From a virus, in IMG/VR virus record IMGVR_UViG_3300008117_000088, positions 32,031-96,030 of that record: a stretch of DNA of 64,000 nt; one strand, written 5' to 3'. Of this stretch, positions 23,226 through 32,152 are shown one piece after another. Within the stretch, counting starts at the first letter, position 1, and each line of letters starts with the position of its first letter. Under the pieces are notes generated by a model. The model searched no databases. It was not told where the DNA came from and worked only from the letters and a program-made list of their open reading frames with translations. Both the position numbers and the translations under genes were made by a program.

Positions 23226-24275
23226 TTATTCACTGTAGAAGACTAGGTTACGCTTTAGGCGCTCGTCTGTAGGGTTTAACTCAACCGCCTTTTCGCCGTA
23301 CTCCTTTGCTTTGTCTGTAAGTCCTAAATGATGTGAGGCAATTGCCGCATAATCGTATGGTGCCGAACCCCATGCAAACTCTTCGCATAAGTACTCAAGT
23401 GGTTTTTCTGTAATACGAAGCGCCTCTTCCGCTACGTCAAGGCAGTCAAACCAACGGTTGTTTTCATAATAAAGTTTGGCTAACTCTACGTAAGCCTCCC
23501 GTCTATCTGGTGCTTCTTCAACGGCTTTTTTAAACCAATCTTCAGCTCCCATAAAATCATCAGACATCTTTGCAATGTAACGCATAGATGCTGCTCTTTC
23601 AGGTTTCCACACTGCCCGTGGTAGAGATAAGTGACGCTTAAACTCTTCTGTTGCTTCTGCAAACTTTCCATAAAAGAATAATTCTCTGGCGTAGTAAAAC
23701 GCGTTCCTATCATCGTGTGGGTCTTCAATTACAGATTGAGCCAATAACGGGAAATACTGAGAGCGTGGTTTAGTGTCGTCTGGGTGATGATGGATCTCAA
23801 GTCCTACCCAATTTTCAATTTGTTGTATTCGATCAGTTACCAATACTTCGTGGACAGGATGCTTCCAACGATAGCCGTGGCGTTTGTGGATCTTGTCTCC
23901 ACCATACTGAAGACCAGGAGACCCGTCGGGGTTCCAGTTCCAGGTGTATTTGTAGCGTGGTCTGGTTGTTTGTGTTGGGACAGCCTCTAGGTGTTTACGC
24001 CATCCTTCAACTAATACCTCATCCATATCCAAAGCAATACAGTAGTCAATATCATTTGGAAGCGCTGCAAGGGATGCATTGCGTGCATCGTCAAACCGCC
24101 AAGGTTTTACAGAAATAGATATAACATTGATACCAAGTTCTTTGGCTAGTTCAACCGTATTGTCTGTAGACCCGGTGTCCGCAATTAATAAGTAGTCAGC
24201 TTCTTTAGCGGACTCATACCACTTATGAACAAATTGTTGTTCATTAAGGGCGATTGTGTAAACCGCTATTTTCAT
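23226..24275 (-). CDS. GT2 glycosyltransferase with C-terminal TPRs
   Basis: IALNE, DTGSTD, FDDARNASL, LDMDE (DxD), HPVHE; TPR helices. Confidence 0.92.
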   Translation of the reverse strand: MKIAVYTIALNEQQFVHKWYESAKEADYLLIADTGSTDNTVELAKELGINVISISVKPWRFDDARNASLAALPNDIDYCIALDMDEVLVEGWRKHLEAVPTQTTRPRYKYTWNWNPDGSPGLQYGGDKIHKRHGYRWKHPVHEVLVTDRIQQIENWVGLEIHHHPDDTKPRSQYFPLLAQSVIEDPHDDRNAFYYARELFFYGKFAEATEEFKRHLSLPRAVWKPERAASMRYIAKMSDDFMGAEDWFKKAVEEAPDRREAYVELAKLYYENNRWFDCLDVAEEALRITEKPLEYLCEEFAWGSAPYDYAAIASHHLGLTDKAKEYGEKAVELNPTDERLKRNLVFYSE

Positions 24276-24501: not shown

Positions 24502-24630
24502 TTATTCTTCGTTTGGTGCCACCATATCATATCCGATTACTTCTCCTGTATCGGCATTCTTGACTTCAAATTTCTCAAAGCCTGAAGCATCTTTTCCAAG
24601 GCTTGTTTTAATTACATTAATAGATGTCAT
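24502..24630 (-). CDS. 42-aa hypothetical protein (possible fibre partner)
   Basis: Read by hand MTSINVIKTSLGKDASGFEKFEVKNADTGEVIGYDMVAPNEE; ATGA overlap. Confidence 0.55.
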   Translation of the reverse strand: MTSINVIKTSLGKDASGFEKFEVKNADTGEVIGYDMVAPNEE

Positions 24631-26351
24631 ATGAACCTCGCCCAATATCCGTTAGATGTGTTGTTAAGTGGTGTGGCTGAAGAGGGTAGATCTGACTGAC
24701 TGTCTAAGTAGCCACGCATGACTGGTGATAGTGCGTTTAAAACCGCTGGTGGGTAACCAAAGGCAAGGTAGCCGGTACCAGGGGTTGTAGCAATAACAAG
24801 GATTGCAAAGCCGTAGCGTTGTCCAGCCTGGAACGTTACAGAAGAACTTAGATTTCTTGTGTAAACAGTGTTACGTGTTCCAAAAATAGTAATGTCGTTT
24901 GCTGTGCTTGCCAACAGTGTGGCTGTAGTCTCATCAAAAGAGTAAACACCCATCTTAATAAGGGTAGCGCCAGTAGTTGCTGTACCAGCAGATGCCACCG
25001 ATACAGTTGATGCGGTATGGGTGTGAAGCGGGCTAAAGAAGCTCCAGTAAACAGTTCCGCTAGTAAACGAGGCAGAACGGTTGTCATAACGAGGGGCTAC
25101 ATCGATGTATGTATCAGACAACTCCATACGAGCCTGCACTCGATTAATAAGAGCTATCTCTCCAGAAGCATTTGGCAACGTAAGTGTACGGTCTGCAGTT
25201 GGGTCTGTTACTTGAAGGGTAGTCTCAAACGCATCTGCGGTTGCTCCTTCAAAAACAATTGAAGATCCAACAGTAAGACCACTAAAGGTTGGGGTTGTAA
25301 TAGTTCCACCTAAAGAAACCGTGTCAGTTCCAATAGTTATAGAGGAGTTCGCTAACTTAACGTTAGTCACATTTCCATCAACTATTTTTGCTGTAGTAAC
25401 AGTGTTGTCGGTTGGGGTACGGGTGTCGGAGAGTCGAGTATCTGTTCCATAAACAACTTCTGTTGCTGAAGCGTTTCCAGTAGCGGGAATGTCTTTTGTA
25501 GATGACGTTCCAAGACCAGTAACTTGAGTGTTTGCAATTGACAATAATGTTTGATCAATACCAATAACTGCAGCAATATTTGTTCCAGTATTTGTTATAG
25601 GACCTGTTACAGATACAACTCCTGTAGCCCCAGTAGGGCCAGTAGGACCGGTTACTGTTGAGTCAGCTCCCGTAGGACCGGTTGGACCAGTAGGTCCTGT
25701 GGGACCAGTAGGACCAGTTACATTAGAGTCTGCGCCTGTTGGACCGGTTGGTCCTGTGGGCCCTGTTGCTCCAACAATTTGACCAGCGCTGTACCAAGTT
25801 GTTCCATCCCAAACGTACACATCTCCATCTGCATCAACAATATACGCATCGTTAATGTCATTTCCTGTTGACGGAAGATCAACAACGTTAGCAACACTAC
25901 CTATTAAAGTAATAGGAACACCTTGAGGACCTTGTGGTCCAGTAGGTCCAGTAGGTCCGGTTGGTCCAGTTACTGTTGAATCTGCGCCGGTTGGTCCAGT
26001 TGAACCCGTAGGACCCGTTGGTCCAGTTGGACCAGTTGGTCCAGTTGGACCCGTTACACCTTGAGGAATTCCAAAATTATAAATTGCCGATGAAGCTGTT
26101 CCAGTATTAGTTACTGTTGCTGATGCTCCAGGACCTAATGTTGTTACTGCACCAATAGTGGCTGTAGAACTTGGACCAGTAGGACCAGTTACACCTGAAG
26201 AGTATTGAAGACCAGACCACGGAGTTGTACCTGTGCCAACTTTAAATCTACCAGTATCAAATTCATAACCAACTTCACCTTGTGAAAGTGTTGGGTTATT
26301 AGTTGTCCAGTTAGCTGCGGTGTCACGTCTGAATTGAATCTTTACAGCCAT
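24627..26351 (-). CDS. collagen-like (GPT)n fibre with Mtd_N/hyaluronidase-type N-terminal domain
   Basis: IQFRRDTAANW..LSQGEVGYEFDTGRFKVG; two GPT tracts; FEGATADAFETTL..DRTLTLP fibre motif. Confidence 0.85.
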   Translation of the reverse strand: MAVKIQFRRDTAANWTTNNPTLSQGEVGYEFDTGRFKVGTGTTPWSGLQYSSGVTGPTGPSSTATIGAVTTLGPGASATVTNTGTASSAIYNFGIPQGVTGPTGPTGPTGPTGPTGSTGPTGADSTVTGPTGPTGPTGPQGPQGVPITLIGSVANVVDLPSTGNDINDAYIVDADGDVYVWDGTTWYSAGQIVGATGPTGPTGPTGADSNVTGPTGPTGPTGPTGPTGADSTVTGPTGPTGATGVVSVTGPITNTGTNIAAVIGIDQTLLSIANTQVTGLGTSSTKDIPATGNASATEVVYGTDTRLSDTRTPTDNTVTTAKIVDGNVTNVKLANSSITIGTDTVSLGGTITTPTFSGLTVGSSIVFEGATADAFETTLQVTDPTADRTLTLPNASGEIALINRVQARMELSDTYIDVAPRYDNRSASFTSGTVYWSFFSPLHTHTASTVSVASAGTATTGATLIKMGVYSFDETTATLLASTANDITIFGTRNTVYTRNLSSSVTFQAGQRYGFAILVIATTPGTGYLAFGYPPAVLNALSPVMRGYLDSQSDLPSSATPLNNTSNGYWARFI

Positions 26352-26730: not shown

Positions 26731-27417
26731 TTATTCAAAAGTCTTCTTAACCCACCAGTGCTTTCTATATCCACCAGTTATGTACTTAGATATAGACCAA
26801 ATCTGTTTATCAGCCCAGTCAGGATCGTACTCTGCTACTTCCGATTTCCATCCTTCTCTTTTTATAGGTACCACCTGAATGATTGGAGTGCCTTCAGGGA
26901 TAACTCCTTCAAAACCTTCTTTTAAAAAGAAGGGGATACCCCCACCGGCTGAAAATCCATCAGATTCTACAAAACCATTGGTTGTAGTAAAGGGCAGATC
27001 AAATCTATTAAATGGGTGAGTAAATAAGCAGCTATACCCTTCCGGAACTTCTATTCCCCAAGTTGTGTTCCAAGCATATAGATCGTGATCGTGACCTGCT
27101 GGTCTAGGTAATTCAGTAGCCATGTCTTTTGGACGAACTTCTAACGGAGAAGATATTTGGTTTCTTGCACCATTCCAAGCAAATCCAACCCTACCGTTTT
27201 TTCGTTCTATAAGAACATCCCCGGGCAAGGTAATGCAGTAGCCGGCAGTCATTGCTTCTAAAAATGGAATACAAAGTTTTATGTCTTTGTTTACTCCTCC
27301 ACCTTCAAGAATTTCAGGCTTACCACTACGCCAACGTTTTGATTTTTTGTACCAATCTGGAACAAATGCTCGTGCAGGCTTAGGGGGAGAGTGCAGCTTA
27401 GCCACACTCTCTTCCAT
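26731..27417 (-). CDS. DUF6065-like protein (paralogue of 54135-54872)
   Basis: PDWYK, CIPFLEAMTAGY, HPFNRFDLPF, GTPIIQVVP; start slightly uncertain. Confidence 0.6.
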   Translation of the reverse strand: MEESVAKLHSPPKPARAFVPDWYKKSKRWRSGKPEILEGGGVNKDIKLCIPFLEAMTAGYCITLPGDVLIERKNGRVGFAWNGARNQISSPLEVRPKDMATELPRPAGHDHDLYAWNTTWGIEVPEGYSCLFTHPFNRFDLPFTTTNGFVESDGFSAGGGIPFFLKEGFEGVIPEGTPIIQVVPIKREGWKSEVAEYDPDWADKQIWSISKYITGGYRKHWWVKKTFE

Positions 27418-27437: not shown

Positions 27438-28388
27438 TCAGAGGATTCCTCCGTAATATAAAGTAATTCCCATTAAAATTATCGGAATTACTAAAGCAAA
27501 GATGGCTTTGTAGTAGTCCTTAAGAGGAGTTCTAAAGTAACTTTTACCAACTACTAAACATTTATGGGCTGGGGACAGCATGTAGCCAGCGTAGTCAAAA
27601 GCAAAGAATAGTGGCAAAGTTTCAACGCCAAATACCCCTACAGAAAGTACAACAAAACCAGCAAACTTACTACTGCTTCCTAGAGCAAAACTGGCTAGAA
27701 AACCGGTAGCAGCAACTAAAAATAGTAGATTGTGTTGATGAGCGTCTTCTAACCACGCATTAATAGTTTCTATATTTGCTTTAATAATGTTGCTAAGAAC
27801 AATAACAATTGCCGTAAATACCAAAACTCTAGCGTAATCTATTAGCTGTTTACGATCTCGTTTCCAGTCGGCTTCAATTTGCCAAGGCTCTTTGTCTTTC
27901 TTTTTTAAAGGTTTTTCTGGAATTGATATCTCAATATCGTCTTCTTTTAAAACCTTAAATATGTAGAACAAAATAACAATTCCCGCAGTAGCTAATAGCG
28001 GCCATGTTTTACCTAGAAGCTCCCAATAACTAAGGCTGAGAGCTGCCATAGGTAGTAAAACAGTTGCCTCTAGCGGAGACCAAAAATAAAAGTGATGCGT
28101 AGATAGATAATCAATAATTCCGTAGTTCTTACGTTTTTTATAATCATCTGGGGCAATAGTGTCTAGAGCACCTGCCGATACAGCGACGCGACCTGAAATC
28201 GGTAGTACGCCCGAGAACAGAGAGATAAGAGCAACAACTGCTCTTTTTGATTTTATAGTTGTGGCAATCCAAGCATAGAAGGGCATAAATATTTGGCTCT
28301 TCTTTGCCGCAAAGGACAAAGCCATAACTGAAGCAAGAAGTAGAAGGTATTGCTGATTATCCAGCAACAACGAGGATGTAAACTCCAT
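27438..28388 (-). CDS. multi-pass membrane transporter (IT superfamily / DUF401-like)
   Basis: About 9 hydrophobic segments; GVLPISGRVAVSA, LGSSSKFAG, GYMLSPAHKCL. Confidence 0.7.
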   Translation of the reverse strand: MEFTSSLLLDNQQYLLLLASVMALSFAAKKSQIFMPFYAWIATTIKSKRAVVALISLFSGVLPISGRVAVSAGALDTIAPDDYKKRKNYGIIDYLSTHHFYFWSPLEATVLLPMAALSLSYWELLGKTWPLLATAGIVILFYIFKVLKEDDIEISIPEKPLKKKDKEPWQIEADWKRDRKQLIDYARVLVFTAIVIVLSNIIKANIETINAWLEDAHQHNLLFLVAATGFLASFALGSSSKFAGFVVLSVGVFGVETLPLFFAFDYAGYMLSPAHKCLVVGKSYFRTPLKDYYKAIFALVIPIILMGITLYYGGIL

Positions 28389-30000
28389 TCCACCATAACC
28401 TTTCGTTCTCGATACTGTTAAGTATCTTTTTAGAGTATACGGGTGTAAGACCCGCGGCTTTTACCGCGTCGTCTGCAGCCCGTACCGTATCTGTCCAATT
28501 CGCGTCATCGAACACCAGGATGGCCTGCTTGGCGAAGCAGTCCCTATAACGGGTCACGGTCTTATATATATGCTCGTACTCGTGAGGTCCATCATAGAAA
28601 AATAAATCTACATCTTTGATAGTAGACACATCAACTTCGTGCACATCTTCATTAATAATGTGCACCTTGTTGTTGCCGATATAAGGGGCTATATTCTTTT
28701 CAAATTCATTTTGATCATTTGGAGGCAGCTCGCCGTGTCGCTCTTCTACAGGCTGAAGGTCCTCTTCCCACATATCAATGAAATAGGCTTCGAGGTTATT
28801 GCCCGCTAAAGCAGCCGCACCGGTTGCGCCTAGATACGCTCCAACCTCAAGGTAAACCTTAGATTGTGAGGCTAAACCGTTTAAGAGCTGCTGAACTCTA
28901 CGGCTAGTCAAACCAGGAATGTCGATGTCCAGTTTTCTATTGACAGAGTCAACCAGCTCTCGGGTTACCACTAGGGTCCTGGGTTGGCGCTTATCTCCGT
29001 ACTTAGCTGCAACAATCTTGTCGCAGTATCCGCAGTCCCAGCAGTCAAATTTGCAAGTGCGAATTTTTTTACGCCAGATGTCTATAGGTTTATCTACCAA
29101 GTTAGTCTCTTCAATAAAATCTTTAAAATGGTCAAAAAGTATTTCTTTACCGGCTGCATAGTTTTTGATAATTTGCATAGTCTCTCTGAGACGAGACTTG
29201 GACTCTCTTCCATGCATCTTTATAACGTCTATGCCTAGATCGGTAAAAAAGTACTCCCAATCTTCACGCCATGGTGGGAAATTAGCTGTTTTTAAAGGCA
29301 CTGCTTGATCTTCGTATGTCCACTTCATACATGAAACGTGGCTAACAGGGTCGTGAAAATATTGTGGACCGTCTGTACGAGTGTTGTTAAATTGATAGTG
29401 CTCATCCATCATAGGGCATCCACCAAGACACCCCTCGTTGGCTAAAAGAGATAATTTAACTCCGTACTGTTCTTTAGCCTTTTTAAATCTCAGTAACTTT
29501 TCGTGATCTCTCATTAGATCTCGATCTAAGTTTATATAGTTAAACCCAGCCTTGGCTAAATGAGATATTTCTCTGGGTTCATTTACGTTTCTTAAAATAG
29601 TATTTTTAATAAAAATGCCGGGGAAAGCGTCTTGAATTTGACCCGTAGCTACCCAATGGGTGTGCGGAATAGTTACCGATTGTATGCCGGCATCATACAA
29701 AGGTTTAAAGTTTTGAATAAATAGATCTAAATTTTCTTGAGATGGGCGAACGTAAATATTGTTAAACACAGCAGATGCTGTAACCCCAGTAACTTCTTGT
29801 ATATATAGGGCAAGTTGATTTAGGTAATCCCAGTCTTCTTCACGACCGTTAAATACGTCCCCCATAGCGTCTTGAGTAAAAGGAGGAATGCGACAGGTAA
29901 AATAAAAATCATAAATATAAGGCTTATAGTCAATTAAAAAATTTATAAATTGTTCTGTCTCTGCTTCAGCCAATTTAGGGTTTAACGGAACGGTAAACAA
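28357..30000 (-). CDS. U32-family Fe-S protein fused to a class I SAM methyltransferase (Methyltransf_24-like)
   Basis: NLDRDL, LLANEGCLGGCP, DVIKMHGRE, CKFDCWDCGYC; then YLEVGAYLGAT, LFFYDGPH, LVFDD. Confidence 0.78.
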   Translation of the reverse strand: MFTVPLNPKLAEAETEQFINFLIDYKPYIYDFYFTCRIPPFTQDAMGDVFNGREEDWDYLNQLALYIQEVTGVTASAVFNNIYVRPSQENLDLFIQNFKPLYDAGIQSVTIPHTHWVATGQIQDAFPGIFIKNTILRNVNEPREISHLAKAGFNYINLDRDLMRDHEKLLRFKKAKEQYGVKLSLLANEGCLGGCPMMDEHYQFNNTRTDGPQYFHDPVSHVSCMKWTYEDQAVPLKTANFPPWREDWEYFFTDLGIDVIKMHGRESKSRLRETMQIIKNYAAGKEILFDHFKDFIEETNLVDKPIDIWRKKIRTCKFDCWDCGYCDKIVAAKYGDKRQPRTLVVTRELVDSVNRKLDIDIPGLTSRRVQQLLNGLASQSKVYLEVGAYLGATGAAALAGNNLEAYFIDMWEEDLQPVEERHGELPPNDQNEFEKNIAPYIGNNKVHIINEDVHEVDVSTIKDVDLFFYDGPHEYEHIYKTVTRYRDCFAKQAILVFDDANWTDTVRAADDAVKAAGLTPVYSKKILNSIENERLWWNGVYILVVAG

Positions 30001-30002
30001 GT

Positions 30003-30410
30003 TTAATCCTTATAGTAGTCGTTATACGGGACATAGCAGTCTATCTTATTTCTTAAAGAAAGAGCTTTTTCTCTATCTTCAGAAGTAAGGGTGTACTTGT
30101 ACTTTATCACCTCCGGATCAACTTCCCCTGTAGATTTGTTTACTACTTGTGGCACTTTTTCTAAATAGCGGTCTTTTAATTGCTCGTAAACTTCGGTATT
30201 TGGGCGCACAGTTATTTGAGAAACGTTTTCTGGGACCTCTACAAATCTCCAAGCAAATGCTTCTTCTTTAGTCAGTTCAACCCTAGAGCATCTAGCAGGA
30301 TCCACATCAGACTCTACTATGACCGCTAAATATGACCTACCAATTTCTTTAAATTTAAACAGATCTTTATATTTTAAATAATCGTCTAGAAATATAGCAA
30401 AGTACTTCAT
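30003..30410 (-). CDS. hypothetical protein
   Basis: Coupled ORF in U32 operon. Confidence 0.7.
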   Translation of the reverse strand: MKYFAIFLDDYLKYKDLFKFKEIGRSYLAVIVESDVDPARCSRVELTKEEAFAWRFVEVPENVSQITVRPNTEVYEQLKDRYLEKVPQVVNKSTGEVDPEVIKYKYTLTSEDREKALSLRNKIDCYVPYNDYYKD

Positions 30411-31189
30411 TCAATTTCCTTTACCGCTTCCTTACGTATTTTGTAAAGGTCTAAAACAGGTAAATCATTTTTAAGAGAAGGTAAAATTGCCTGTTCAATT
30501 CTTCCCATTTCAATTTTCATTTGATTACCGTAACTAATTGCAAGTTGTAAAGTTTCCTTAGCCGCGTTGTTATCCATCTGCAGTATGGCGTCCATATTAC
30601 CTATTCCAATTTGACCATAAGCCATCAAATCTAAAGAGGCCTGTCTTGCTAGTCTTACTATCCAATGATCCCTCTCTAGTTGAGAGTTTAAATACGGGTC
30701 TCTAATTGCGTCTAGTAAATCGGTACCATCTTCTAGATACGCAGATCCATCATCATACATTTCTTGAATCATTCTGAGGTATTGATCACGTTCGTATATT
30801 GTTTGACTCATACGACGCATGATTATAAGTCGTTCACGATCTAAATCTTTTATACGAGTTTTACATAATTTTTTAAACGCTACGGAGTCTGACTCATTTG
30901 CTCGTTCTTGCTCATAGTCTATTTCAGCTAATTTTTCTTCTAACTTTAGGACATGAACTTCTAAAGCCTCTTCACGAGAACGGAGTTCTAAAAGAAATTG
31001 TTTAAACTTTTGATATGGCGTAATCTGAGCATCGCCAACAAAATGCCTAGTTTTAAAATCAGATTGACTGTGCTCATAATTTGTCGCAACTTCAAGCCAC
31101 TTCTGTTGCGTGTCTGTTAAATGTTCTTTATTAGTCCCAATAGGACCAGGCAAAAGTTCTTGTTTTCTTTGCTCCATAGTAATCTCCAA
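30407..31189 (-). CDS. coiled-coil protein (possible fibre chaperone)
   Basis: QITPYQKFKQFLLEL, long helical; TATACT/TATAAT and GGAG upstream. Confidence 0.65.
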   Translation of the reverse strand: MEITMEQRKQELLPGPIGTNKEHLTDTQQKWLEVATNYEHSQSDFKTRHFVGDAQITPYQKFKQFLLELRSREEALEVHVLKLEEKLAEIDYEQERANESDSVAFKKLCKTRIKDLDRERLIIMRRMSQTIYERDQYLRMIQEMYDDGSAYLEDGTDLLDAIRDPYLNSQLERDHWIVRLARQASLDLMAYGQIGIGNMDAILQMDNNAAKETLQLAISYGNQMKIEMGRIEQAILPSLKNDLPVLDLYKIRKEAVKEIE

Positions 31190-31201
31190 TTATAGTATAA
31201 G

Positions 31202-32152
31202 TTAGTCACGCCAAGCACATGCGCCGGAAGAGCGCCCGCTAATACCCGATCCTCTCGGTTGCATTGTAGAACTGCCTTCAAATCCTGAATCTGTGGAATA
31301 GTTCCATCTCCAAGCACGGTTATTTTGAGCTCCGTCAAACATACCTAGCATGTAGGCATGTGCCTGACCCATGTCTAGATTTTCTTCCCCAGAGTTAGCA
31401 ATAGGTTTGCTGTGGTTAGAAACAACACTATCCGTAGCATAGTTCCATTTACGAAACGCGTTTCCTCCGTTATACGATCCCTCGTTGCCGGCCCAACCAA
31501 AACCAATTTTAGAACTATGTCCTTTTTGTTGGTGATGGTTTGCCGCAGAAGCCACGCCAGATTGAGCTTCGGTAGCATAAGTAAACTTTGTTGTTGTCCC
31601 TGAACCATTCCAAACATAGCCGTAGTTTTCACCATAGTGGTGTCCAGCGTTAGAATCGTTTAGCGCAGAGGACCCAATAGTTCCTGCAAAACCCTCAGTA
31701 GCAAGGTTAAACTTTGAAATTGTAGTGCTATTGCCAAATACATACGCCATCATTCCAAAACCGGTAACTGGATCTGAGGACTGCATACCTTCAGAGTCGT
31801 CATAGGTTTGGGGCATAGAGAAATCTCCAGTGTTTACGTTAGTTCTCATGTTGTATGAGGAAGCGGTTGAATAGCCTCCCATACCGCCAGTGTTCCAAAC
31901 AAAGTGACGGTTTGCGTTGTGACTTGACCCAATATACCCTCCAGCAGATGAAATCAAGTTACCCTGATCTACTGCAGAGTCTGTGGAGTGTTGAATATAG
32001 TTAACGTTAGTCCAAGGCTGGCTATTAATATAGCCACCTACAAGATACCCGCGGGTAATCACCTGTCGTAAAAGAAAACTCTTAACGCCTCTTGAACGAC
32101 CGCCAATTACTCCGGTACCACCACCGCGACTAGTAAGGTTAAAAAAGGGCAT
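31202..32152 (-). CDS. Gly/Asn/Ser-rich repeat protein, Kelch/beta-propeller-like
   Basis: About 6-7 repeats of G(Y/W)xxGG ... K(F/W)N(Y/L)ATD/E; follows the large fibre gene. Confidence 0.6.
   Translation of the reverse strand: MPFFNLTSRGGGTGVIGGRSRGVKSFLLRQVITRGYLVGGYINSQPWTNVNYIQHSTDSAVDQGNLISSAGGYIGSSHNANRHFVWNTGGMGGYSTASSYNMRTNVNTGDFSMPQTYDDSEGMQSSDPVTGFGMMAYVFGNSTTISKFNLATEGFAGTIGSSALNDSNAGHHYGENYGYVWNGSGTTTKFTYATEAQSGVASAANHHQQKGHSSKIGFGWAGNEGSYNGGNAFRKWNYATDSVVSNHSKPIANSGEENLDMGQAHAYMLGMFDGAQNNRAWRWNYSTDSGFEGSSTMQPRGSGISGRSSGACAWRD

What the first reader, a model, noticed from the sequence alone, without database searches (positions are those of the whole stretch)
27438..32152. Five-gene cassette: propeller protein, coiled coil, unknown ORF, U32 Fe-S/O-methyltransferase fusion and membrane transporter, inside the fibre region
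Seen: closely packed, mostly overlapping genes directly behind the 1200-aa fibre and ahead of the collagens. The 547-aa protein joins a U32-like barrel (NEGCLGGCP, IKMHGRE, extra CKFDCWDCGYC cluster) to a SAM methyltransferase, and overlaps a roughly 9-TM transporter. Established: characterised U32 proteins (UbiU/UbiV, RlhA, TrhP) are 4Fe-4S, O2-independent hydroxylases, and in Bacillus TrhP followed by the O-methyltransferase TrmR makes 5-methoxyuridine. The Cys spacing here is non-canonical. Inference: a single-chain hydroxylate-then-methylate enzyme with a dedicated ion/cosubstrate transporter, acting on the propeller/fibre protein or on RNA. It could be an anoxia-tolerant counterpart to the O2-dependent P4Hs. 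I know of no described phage system like this.
Basis: partly seen in the sequence, partly recalled or inferred. Interest (0 to 1): 0.8.

Follow-up and report, generated by a model that had tools for sequence, protein, structure and literature searches.

The report
Phage U32-like/O-methyltransferase gene cassette
Behind a tail-fibre gene, this freshwater phage carries a widely shared five-gene block built around an unstudied enzyme (a very divergent relative of the oxygen-independent 'U32' iron-sulfur hydroxylases fused to an O-methyltransferase); it probably adds a methoxy group to a target that remains unknown.

Summary
Five tightly packed minus-strand genes lie at 27438-32152 in a complete 96-kb phage with terminal repeats.

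The 547-aa protein has two domains:
- Residues 1-271 match the only solved U32 barrel, Mk0906 (Z 16.8, 223 of 247 residues).
- Residues 346-547 are a cation-dependent O-methyltransferase; the only sequence match among solved structures is TrmR/YrrM.

No Pfam U32 hit exists. The canonical four-Cys motif is replaced by seven invariant Cys: C191-X3-C195-X28-C224 and C316-X3-C320-X2-C323-X2-C326.

Conservation:
- All five genes recur in the same order in IMG/VR phage contigs. All 68 loci with enough upstream DNA have propeller plus coiled coil, and 70 of 73 with enough downstream DNA have the membrane gene.
- Four of the five recur in Ralstonia jumbo phage RP12.
- The cassette, without the methyltransferase, also sits in a Leptospirales chromosome.

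New here: a second clade of the barrel, with the same seven Cys, lies in T4-like replication modules without any of the partner genes.

Hydroxylate-then-methylate is the best-supported chemistry, but the target is not shown. The "dedicated transporter" and "anoxic P4H" readings have no support.

This scan found the same cassette before on other DNA, with the same verdict. I rate it a new variant of a known kind.

The parts
31202..32152 (-). 316-aa propeller-repeat protein (phrog_1417), first gene of the cassette. Homologues occur in 1-3 tandem copies, and some carry long N-terminal extensions.
   Evidence: E 1e-37. Atlas lead: a viral cluster in which 22% of members carry a Kelch family. HMM hits sit upstream of the enzyme in all 68 loci with enough DNA, and in RP12 ORF142 (7e-29). 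Not folded here.
30407..31189 (-). 260-aa all-helical protein with a long helical hairpin (phrog_1409). It co-occurs with the U32-like gene.
   Evidence: AF2 model pLDDT 90.5. Only generic hairpin matches, Z 10.2 or less. The closest predicted viral structures are the S-ShM2 and RP12 homologues. RP12 ORF140 is in the same PHROG (9e-69). Found in 123 cyanophage records, the same count and name split as the enzyme.
30003..30410 (-). 135-aa protein with no library match. A fast-evolving family that keeps its place between the helical protein and the enzyme.
   Evidence: no family. tblastn finds it in only 9 loci. An iterated HMM finds it between the two neighbours in 67 of 80 and 20 of 20 loci.
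29188..30000 (-). Residues 1-271 of the 547-aa enzyme: a divergent U32-type TIM barrel with invariant C191, C195 and C224, and near-invariant E189, E200, H201, K261, G264 and R265.
   Evidence: AF2 pLDDT 92.6. Match to 5d88 U32 peptidase Mk0906: Z 16.8, rmsd 3.1, 223 of 247 residues aligned; next barrel Z 13.5. Foldseek TM 0.70. hhalign against E. coli U32 paralogues: 66%, E 5.5e-5. Atlas neighbours are named Peptidase U32. Invariant residues.
28966..29187 (-). Residues 272-345: helical linker carrying the invariant cluster C316-X3-C320-X2-C323-X2-C326.
   Evidence: invariant in 60 and 75 sequences of both clades. Model confidence is lower here, 69-93. Whether it binds a metal is inferred only.
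28357..28965 (-). Residues 346-547: class I cation-dependent O-methyltransferase domain (Methyltransf_24).
   Evidence: PF13578, E 5.9e-9. Z 15-17 to Rv0187, MeT1, SpnH, TrmR and CCoAOMT. The only sequence hit in the PDB is YrrM/TrmR 5zw3, E 9.6e-4. Invariant G42/G46, D64, D125, D153, D154 and N156 of the domain.
27438..28388 (-). 316-aa multi-pass membrane protein, DUF401-like (ion-transporter superfamily, phrog_14035). It overlaps the enzyme gene by 32 nt.
   Evidence: 36% identical (E 2e-63) to RP12 ORF138, which also overlaps its U32-like gene. Present in 70 of 73 loci with downstream DNA. Invariant S56, P63, G66, R67, H98, H99, G237, S238, S239, K241, H275, K276 and C277.
26731..27417 (-). 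228-aa protein (phrog_7084), a frequent but not constant follower of the membrane gene; a possible accessory member.
   Evidence: E 4e-38. Present in 36 of 80 close loci, with up to three copies in L111.

Best explanation
This is a co-inherited gene module of tailed phages, also found in at least one bacterial chromosome. Its catalytic core is a two-domain enzyme.

- The N-terminal domain is a very divergent member of the U32 superfamily of Fe-S TIM barrels, whose studied members are needed for O2-independent, prephenate-dependent hydroxylation of aromatic carbons.
- The C-terminal domain is a Mg-type catechol/TrmR-like O-methyltransferase.

The most likely chemistry is C-H to C-OH by the barrel, then C-OH to C-OCH3 by the methyltransferase, on one substrate handed between the fused domains.

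The leading candidate target is the co-encoded propeller protein, or something bound to it. The helical protein and the small protein would then serve as assembly or adaptor partners, and the DUF401-like membrane protein as a dispensable accessory.

Shown: the folds, the fusion and split forms, the invariant residues and the gene linkage. Inferred: Fe-S binding, hydroxylation, the order of the steps and the target.
For: - Fold: the U32 structure is the best barrel match by 3.3 Z units, and a profile-profile match covers the barrel core.
- Seven invariant Cys across two clades.
- The methyltransferase keeps its SAM and metal-binding residues and is closest to TrmR. TrmR methylates the ho5U whose formation needs the U32 proteins TrhP1/TrhP2, encoded in the same B. 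subtilis operon (PMC6599085).
- The two domains stay paired whether fused or encoded as overlapping separate genes, as in L090-L109.
- TrmR fusions to another hydroxylase, TrhO, are on record.
- Linkage to the propeller and helical protein holds in 68 of 68 loci with enough DNA, in RP12 and in a Leptospirales chromosome.
- Record counts in cultured cyanophages are identical: 123 for the enzyme, the helical protein and the propeller.
- No gap, terminator or late-promoter box splits the block.
Against: - No Pfam U32 hit for this protein or for 59 homologues, and no hit with an HMM built from four E. coli U32 paralogues.
- The canonical CX6CX15CX3/4C motif is not present.
- Direct hydroxylase activity has not been shown in vitro for any U32 protein (PMC10990095).
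- RP12, the Leptospirales copy and other members lack the methyltransferase, so methylation is not essential to the module.
- The methyltransferase is equally similar in fold to sugar O-methyltransferases (SpnH, MeT1), which need no prior hydroxylation.
- No U32 enzyme is known to act on a protein.
- A sister clade sits among replication and nucleotide-modification genes.
Confidence: 0.5

Rival explanations
1. Nucleic-acid modification. The fusion is a one-chain TrhP plus TrmR analogue that makes a 5-methoxy-pyrimidine in host tRNA or rRNA, or in phage DNA. Its place among fibre genes would be an accident of gene order.
For: Two of the three studied U32 systems act on RNA pyrimidines. TrmR is the only sequence-level PDB hit of the methyltransferase domain. 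The sister clade of the barrel lies between regA and DNA polymerase in T4-like replication modules. In L089 it lies beside Gat-QueC, a QueD-like gene and DenV.
Against: This clade is strictly linked to the propeller, helical and membrane genes inside an uninterrupted structural operon. There is no TrhP C-terminal domain (PF16325). The 96-kb genome has no tRNA gene. The TrmR match is weak (22.5 bits).
Confidence: 0.2
2. A membrane-linked small-molecule or lipid pathway. The enzyme works at the inner membrane with the DUF401-like protein on a quinone-like phenol or a transported metabolite, as UbiU/UbiV plus UbiG do in anaerobic ubiquinone synthesis.
For: The membrane gene overlaps the enzyme gene here and in RP12 and is present in 70 of 73 loci. 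UbiU/UbiV hydroxylate a membrane-bound phenol, and O-methylation of the new hydroxyls by UbiG is a known step of that pathway (from my own knowledge, not read here). The membrane family has invariant His-His and His-Lys-Cys motifs.
Against: The membrane gene is found in only 12 cultured-phage records against 126 with the barrel, is unlinked in S-CAM4 and not found in S-ShM2. It occurs alone in six of nine MAG loci. This reading does not explain the constant propeller and helical partners.
Confidence: 0.15
3. Sugar O-methylation of a glycosylated fibre. The methyltransferase acts on a sugar hydroxyl placed by nearby glycosyltransferases, and the barrel has a different, non-hydroxylase role.
For: Fold matches to the sugar O-methyltransferases SpnH (Z 15.8) and MeT1 (Z 16.2). 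A GT2-TPR glycosyltransferase lies 3 kb downstream at 23226-24275 and is linked in 10 close loci.
Against: The glycosyltransferase is absent from most loci (10 of 82). The barrel and methyltransferase are fused or overlapping, which argues for consecutive steps on one substrate.
Confidence: 0.08
4. A U32 'collagenase'-type peptidase that trims or matures the collagen-like fibres.
For: From memory, the family was first named for collagen-degrading PrtC. Collagen-repeat genes flank the cassette here and in RP12 (ORF143).
Against: Seven invariant Cys point to metal clusters rather than a protease site. Current work treats U32 proteins as Fe-S hydroxylation factors. Many loci have no collagen gene nearby.
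Confidence: 0.04

Closest known systems
U32 family Fe-S proteins (Pfam PF01136): UbiU/UbiV, TrhP (YegQ; B. subtilis TrhP1/TrhP2), RlhA (YdcP); solved fold Mk0906 (PDB 5d88)
   Same: The same TIM-barrel fold (Z 16.8). A collinear profile match over the central strands. A Gly-Cys-X3-Cys element and a Lys-x-x-Gly-Arg element at the places of the U32 GxCxxxC and KIEGR motifs (low-confidence alignment). Conserved Cys suggest Fe-S binding.
   Different: No Pfam or HMM match. The first two Cys of the CX6CX15CX3/4C motif are absent. An extra invariant C224 and a C-terminal CX3CX2CX2C cluster are present. There is no U32 C-terminal domain. It is encoded by phages, with propeller, helical and membrane partners never described for U32 proteins.
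TrmR/YrrM and the yrrM-yrrN-yrrO operon of B. subtilis (tRNA U34 to ho5U34 to mo5U34)
   Same: A U32 protein is paired with a cation-dependent O-methyltransferase in one transcription unit. TrmR is the only sequence hit of the methyltransferase domain among solved structures. The metal-binding Asp residues align.
   Different: Here the two are fused or overlapping. The match to TrmR is weak (E 9.6e-4). The genetic context is virion genes. No tRNA link was found.
UbiU/UbiV with UbiG (O2-independent ubiquinone synthesis)
   Same: Alternating ring hydroxylation and O-methylation, with a link to the membrane.
   Different: No UbiT-like SCP2 partner. The membrane partner is an ion-transporter-superfamily protein. 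No homology to UbiG was tested.
DUF401 / TIGR00529 (AF0261) membrane proteins of the ion-transporter superfamily
   Same: The Pfam cut-off is passed. The RP12 homologue aligns over positions 67-384 of 393 and also touches CitMHS.
   Different: The phage family is shorter at the N-terminus. The window's copy lacks two central helices. No member of DUF401 has a known substrate.

Membership tests
Peptidase U32 (PF01136) | Match to the Pfam family model above its gathering score | tested here: not met
   No hit at E<=1 for the protein. None at E<=0.01 for 60 family members. No hit at E<=10 in the whole phage genome. An HMM of four E. coli paralogues finds nothing at E<=1.
Peptidase U32 (PF01136) | U32 TIM-barrel fold, as in Mk0906 | tested here: met
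   VIA-align Z 16.8, rmsd 3.1, 223 of 247 residues, model residues 1-271; next barrel (MTHFR) Z 13.5. Foldseek TM 0.70.
Peptidase U32 (PF01136) | Profile-level sequence homology to bona fide U32 proteins | tested here: inconclusive
   hhalign probability 66%, E 5.5e-5, over 112 columns, against a thin four-sequence template. The atlas neighbours are named U32, with 20% of their members carrying PF01136.
Peptidase U32 (PF01136) | Conserved four-Cys motif CX6CX15CX3/4C that binds a 4Fe-4S cluster (PMC6747719) | tested here: not met
   The sequence has C191-X3-C195-X28-C224 with no Cys in the 25 residues before C191, plus C316-X3-C320-X2-C323-X2-C326. All seven are invariant.
Peptidase U32 (PF01136) | Fe-S cluster binding and prephenate-dependent hydroxylation | not testable with these tools
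   This needs anaerobic reconstitution, spectroscopy and isotope labelling.
Cation-dependent class I O-methyltransferases (Methyltransf_24 / CCoAOMT / TrmR type) | Pfam match above the cut-off, and the family fold | tested here: met
   PF13578, 37.2 against 26.3 bits. Z 16.9 to 5x7f, 16.2 to 6g7d, 15.4 to TrmR 5zw3 and 15.2 to CCoAOMT.
Cation-dependent class I O-methyltransferases (Methyltransf_24 / CCoAOMT / TrmR type) | SAM-binding Gly-rich motif, the acidic residue after strand 2, and the Asp/Asp/Asn metal site | tested here: met
   Invariant G42, G46, D64, D125, D153, D154 and N156 in 18 sequences. D125 aligns with the Asp of TrmR's FID segment, and D153-D154 with its DN pair. That these TrmR residues are the metal site is from general knowledge of the family.
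TrhP/TrmR tRNA mo5U pathway | TrhP-type C-terminal domain (PF16325) and a tRNA substrate | tested here: not met
   No PF16325 hit, whereas E. coli TrhP relatives carry it. The substrate could not be tested.
DUF401 (PF04165), ion-transporter superfamily | Pfam match above the cut-off over most of the model; about 10 TM helices | tested here: inconclusive
   36 against 24 bits, but the best stretch covers only model positions 325-389. The RP12 homologue covers 67-384. There are 6-8 hydrophobic segments, with a two-helix deletion.
Kelch-type beta-propeller | Six-blade propeller fold or a Kelch Pfam match | tested here: inconclusive
   No Pfam hit. Blade-like repeats are visible. The atlas shows one viral cluster in which 22% of members carry a Kelch family. 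Not folded.

The most novel reading that the evidence does not exclude
The U32-like barrel is an O2-independent hydroxylase that acts on a protein. It would hydroxylate an aromatic side chain (for example Tyr to DOPA) of the co-encoded receptor-binding propeller, and the fused catechol-type methyltransferase would cap it as a methoxy group. That would be the first protein substrate for the U32 superfamily and a new kind of virion or cell-surface protein modification, used by phages and by some bacteria.
Probability: 0.2. Interest if true: 0.85.

Novelty: new variant of a known kind. Interest (0 to 1): 0.62.

Why it matters
- U32 proteins are the only known route to hydroxylation with an organic oxygen donor. 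Most subfamilies are unstudied, no activity has been rebuilt in vitro, and the family is described as almost exclusively bacterial and archaeal (PMC10990095).
- This is an abundant, phage-borne, very divergent branch: 1964 protein clusters at E<=0.001 in one search.
- It has a different Cys layout, a fused O-methyltransferase and fixed partner genes. A small soluble fusion with a built-in reporter step (methylation) could be a tractable system for the chemistry.
- The linked propeller genes vary in copy number, as receptor-binding proteins do, so the module may bear on host recognition in cyanophages and freshwater phages.

Tried and rejected
- Pfam, NCBIfam and PDB sequence searches with the N-terminal domain, alone and as a 60-sequence profile, gave nothing.
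- My last homologue search, meant to enrich the U32 template, returned only TrhP proteins at least 90% identical to each other, so it did not improve the profile comparison.
- Fold searches of the helical protein gave only generic hairpins.
- Longer or differently extended family members (P0259, P0271, P0327, P0355, P0366) carry no recognisable extra domain in Pfam or PHROGs. They show no BLAST similarity to the helical protein.
- The conserved downstream neighbour of the second clade is an acidic low-complexity protein, unrelated to any cassette gene.
- No T4-type late promoter box and no convincing terminator lies inside the block. The sigma-70-like counts are below the shuffled expectation.
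- No tRNA genes were found.
- The first genome-contig scan, with P0328, found nothing, and P0263 found nothing in viral contigs.
- Model coordinates are not exposed, so I could not measure Cys-Cys distances to decide between one cluster and two.
- Rejected: a radical-SAM reading of CX3CX2C. The motif lies after the barrel, not on its first loop, and no radical-SAM structure scored above Z 13.1.

Full report
**1. What is there**

The window is the right-hand 64 kb of a complete 96,030-bp virus record with direct terminal repeats. The region is one long run of minus-strand structural genes.
Spacing from the fibre gene downstream is 8, 12, -4, 2 and -32 nt.
- Upstream lies a 1200-aa fibre-like ORF.
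- Downstream lie a 228-aa ORF, two collagen-repeat ORFs (one with an Mtd_N head) and a GT2-TPR glycosyltransferase.
- No T4-type late box, no convincing terminator and no excess of sigma-70-like sites interrupts the block. Co-transcription with the fibre genes is therefore the simplest reading; this is an inference.

**2. The 547-aa protein**

*Sequence libraries.* Pfam sees only Methyltransf_24 at residues 384-499. PHROGs places the whole protein in phrog_1458, function unknown (E 9e-164). All 126 matching GenBank phage records call it hypothetical.

*Model.* An AlphaFold2 model built on 75 sequences is confident (pLDDT 92.6).

*N-terminal domain.*
- In an all-against-representatives structural search, residues 1-271 match the U32 peptidase Mk0906 (5d88): Z 16.8, rmsd 3.1 A, 223 of 247 residues aligned.
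- Every entry with Z above 13.1 is listed. The only other barrel is MTHFR at Z 13.5.
- Foldseek agrees (TM 0.70 on the target).
- A profile of 60 family members aligns with four E. coli U32 paralogues (TrhP, RlhA, UbiU, UbiV) at 66% probability, E 5.5e-5, over 112 collinear columns that end just before the Cys region.
- When that alignment is forced further, GCLGGCP falls on the U32 GxCxxxC element, and IDVIKMHGRE falls on the U32 KIEGR element. Confidence there is low.
- The language-model atlas puts the domain next to clusters named 'Peptidase U32', with 20% of members carrying PF01136.
- Against membership: no Pfam U32 match exists for this protein, for 59 relatives, or anywhere in the genome.

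So it has the U32 fold and probably belongs to the superfamily, but it is not a member of the curated family.

**3. Cysteines**

U32 proteins bind a 4Fe-4S cluster through CX6CX15CX3/4C. UbiV uses CXnCX12CX3C and UbiU uses CX6CX16CX38C (PMC6747719).

Here seven Cys are invariant in 60 sequences that are 21-48% identical to the query:
- C191-X3-C195-X28-C224 in the barrel.
- C316-X3-C320-X2-C323-X2-C326 in a helical tail.

The first two canonical Cys are missing. Three plus four Cys would allow one cluster completed by the tail, or two clusters.

**4. The methyltransferase**

- Residues 346-547 match cation-dependent O-methyltransferases at Z 15-17: Rv0187, MeT1, SpnH, TrmR and CCoAOMT.
- A profile of 18 domains hits one solved protein by sequence, B. 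subtilis YrrM/TrmR (E 9.6e-4). The invariant D125 and D153-D154 align with TrmR's FID and DN positions.
- TrmR methylates ho5U34. That hydroxyl depends on the U32 proteins TrhP1/TrhP2, encoded in the same operon, and TrmR is fused to the other hydroxylase, TrhO, in three species that the paper lists (PMC6599085).
- The fold alone cannot tell a catechol, a nucleobase or a sugar hydroxyl apart as substrate.

**5. Conservation**

*IMG/VR contigs.* Among 80 contigs whose enzyme is 53-86% identical:

| Gene(s) | Loci with enough flanking DNA | Loci with the gene(s), same order |
|---|---|---|
| Propeller plus helical gene | 68 | 68 |
| Membrane gene | 73 | 70 |

The small 135-aa gene looks unconserved by tblastn (9 loci). 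An iterated HMM nevertheless finds it in place in 67 of the 80.

*A more distant set (48% identity, L090-L109).* It keeps all five genes, has three propeller copies, and encodes the barrel and the methyltransferase as separate overlapping ORFs.

*Cultured phages.* The enzyme, the helical protein and the propeller are each found in 123 cyanophage records, with the same split by organism name. The membrane gene is found in only 12 records.

*Ralstonia jumbo phage RP12.* It carries propeller (HMM 7e-29), an unrelated small gene, helical protein (phrog_1409, 9e-69), barrel without methyltransferase (40% identity) and membrane protein (36% identity, E 2e-63), in the same order, behind a collagen-like gene.

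**6. Two observations made here** (whether the earlier follow-ups also saw them I cannot tell from their summaries)

*(a) A second clade of the barrel.*
- These proteins are about 450 aa and keep the same seven Cys. They were found in 24 IMG/VR loci with none of the partner genes.
- In the 19 of those loci with a shared neighbourhood, the gene lies in T4-like replication modules: sliding clamp, clamp loader, gp62, RegA, [barrel], an acidic protein, nucleases, a 2OG oxygenase and DNA polymerase.
- In one other locus it lies beside Gat-QueC, a QueD-like gene, NADAR and DenV.

*(b) Homologues in bacterial assemblies.* A scan of bacterial genomes with the membrane family found nine MAG loci.
- Six have the membrane gene alone.
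- One has the barrel plus the membrane gene.
- Two have propeller, helical protein, small protein, barrel (no methyltransferase) and membrane gene.
- One of those two is a phage-like contig.
- The other lies at 5.267 Mb of a 6.44-Mb Leptospirales contig. Its GC (0.59) matches the flanks. Nothing within 20 kb on either side resembles any phage locus I hold. A class III adenylate cyclase lies 2.5 kb away. A cryptic prophage is not excluded.

**7. Reading**

The module is real, mobile and functionally coupled. Hydroxylation followed by O-methylation is the chemistry best supported by analogy. It remains inference, and no U32 protein has yet shown activity in vitro (PMC10990095).
- The constant partners favour the propeller protein, or something it binds, as the target.
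- The sister clade's context and the TrmR similarity keep a nucleic-acid target alive.
- The membrane protein is too often absent, unlinked or solitary to be a 'dedicated transporter'.
- Nothing links the enzyme to proline hydroxylation.

**8. Prior notes**

The scan's own notebook shows that the same cassette was reported and followed up on several other genomes, with the same verdict. My fold, synteny and RP12 results were obtained independently here and agree with those notes.

Noticed in passing
L123:5881-7254 (also L124-L145, L089:6001-7326): A second clade of the U32-like barrel: about 450 aa, the same seven invariant Cys, no methyltransferase and none of the partner genes. In most loci it sits between regA and DNA polymerase in T4-like replication modules. 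In L089 it sits beside Gat-QueC, a QueD-like gene, NADAR and DenV. This hints at a nucleic-acid role for that clade.
   Followed up: partly
L151:57-6083 (G001:C2, about 5.263-5.269 Mb): The cassette (754-aa propeller, helical protein, small protein, barrel without methyltransferase, membrane protein) in a 6.44-Mb Leptospirales MAG contig. Its GC equals that of the flanks, nothing phage-like was recognised within 20 kb on either side, and an adenylate cyclase lies 2.5 kb downstream.
   Followed up: partly
L090:5995-7687 (and L091-L108): In a clade with three propeller copies, the barrel (346 aa) and the methyltransferase (232 aa) are separate ORFs overlapping by about 47 nt instead of one fused gene.
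   Followed up: partly
window 27438-28388: The membrane family has invariant His98-His99 and His275-Lys276-Cys277, plus SGxLPxxGR and GSSxK elements that look like paired hairpin motifs. The window's copy and its close relatives lack two central helices that RP12 and others keep.
   Followed up: partly
window 23226-24275 and 24627-26351: A GT2 glycosyltransferase fused to TPR repeats, with a weak match to the prolyl-4-hydroxylase substrate-binding TPR. Beside it is a 574-aa collagen-repeat fibre with an Mtd_N (major tropism determinant) head. The glycosyltransferase travels with the cassette in only 10 close loci.
   Followed up: no
window 26731-27417: A 228-aa protein (phrog_7084) follows the membrane gene in 36 of 80 loci and is present in three copies in L111. 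Function unknown.
   Followed up: no
L106, L072, L045, L058:3330-5555, L116:1537-3450: The propeller gene varies from one to three tandem copies, and some copies carry N-terminal extensions of 200-400 aa, as expected of exchangeable receptor-binding proteins.
   Followed up: partly
NC_031900.1 159589-160563 (S-CAM4): In this marine cyanophage the DUF401-like gene lies 56 kb from the enzyme gene, while S-ShM2 has no match. In metaG-MbCM1 the homologue is annotated as similar to Geobacter lovleyi Glov_0511.
   Followed up: no
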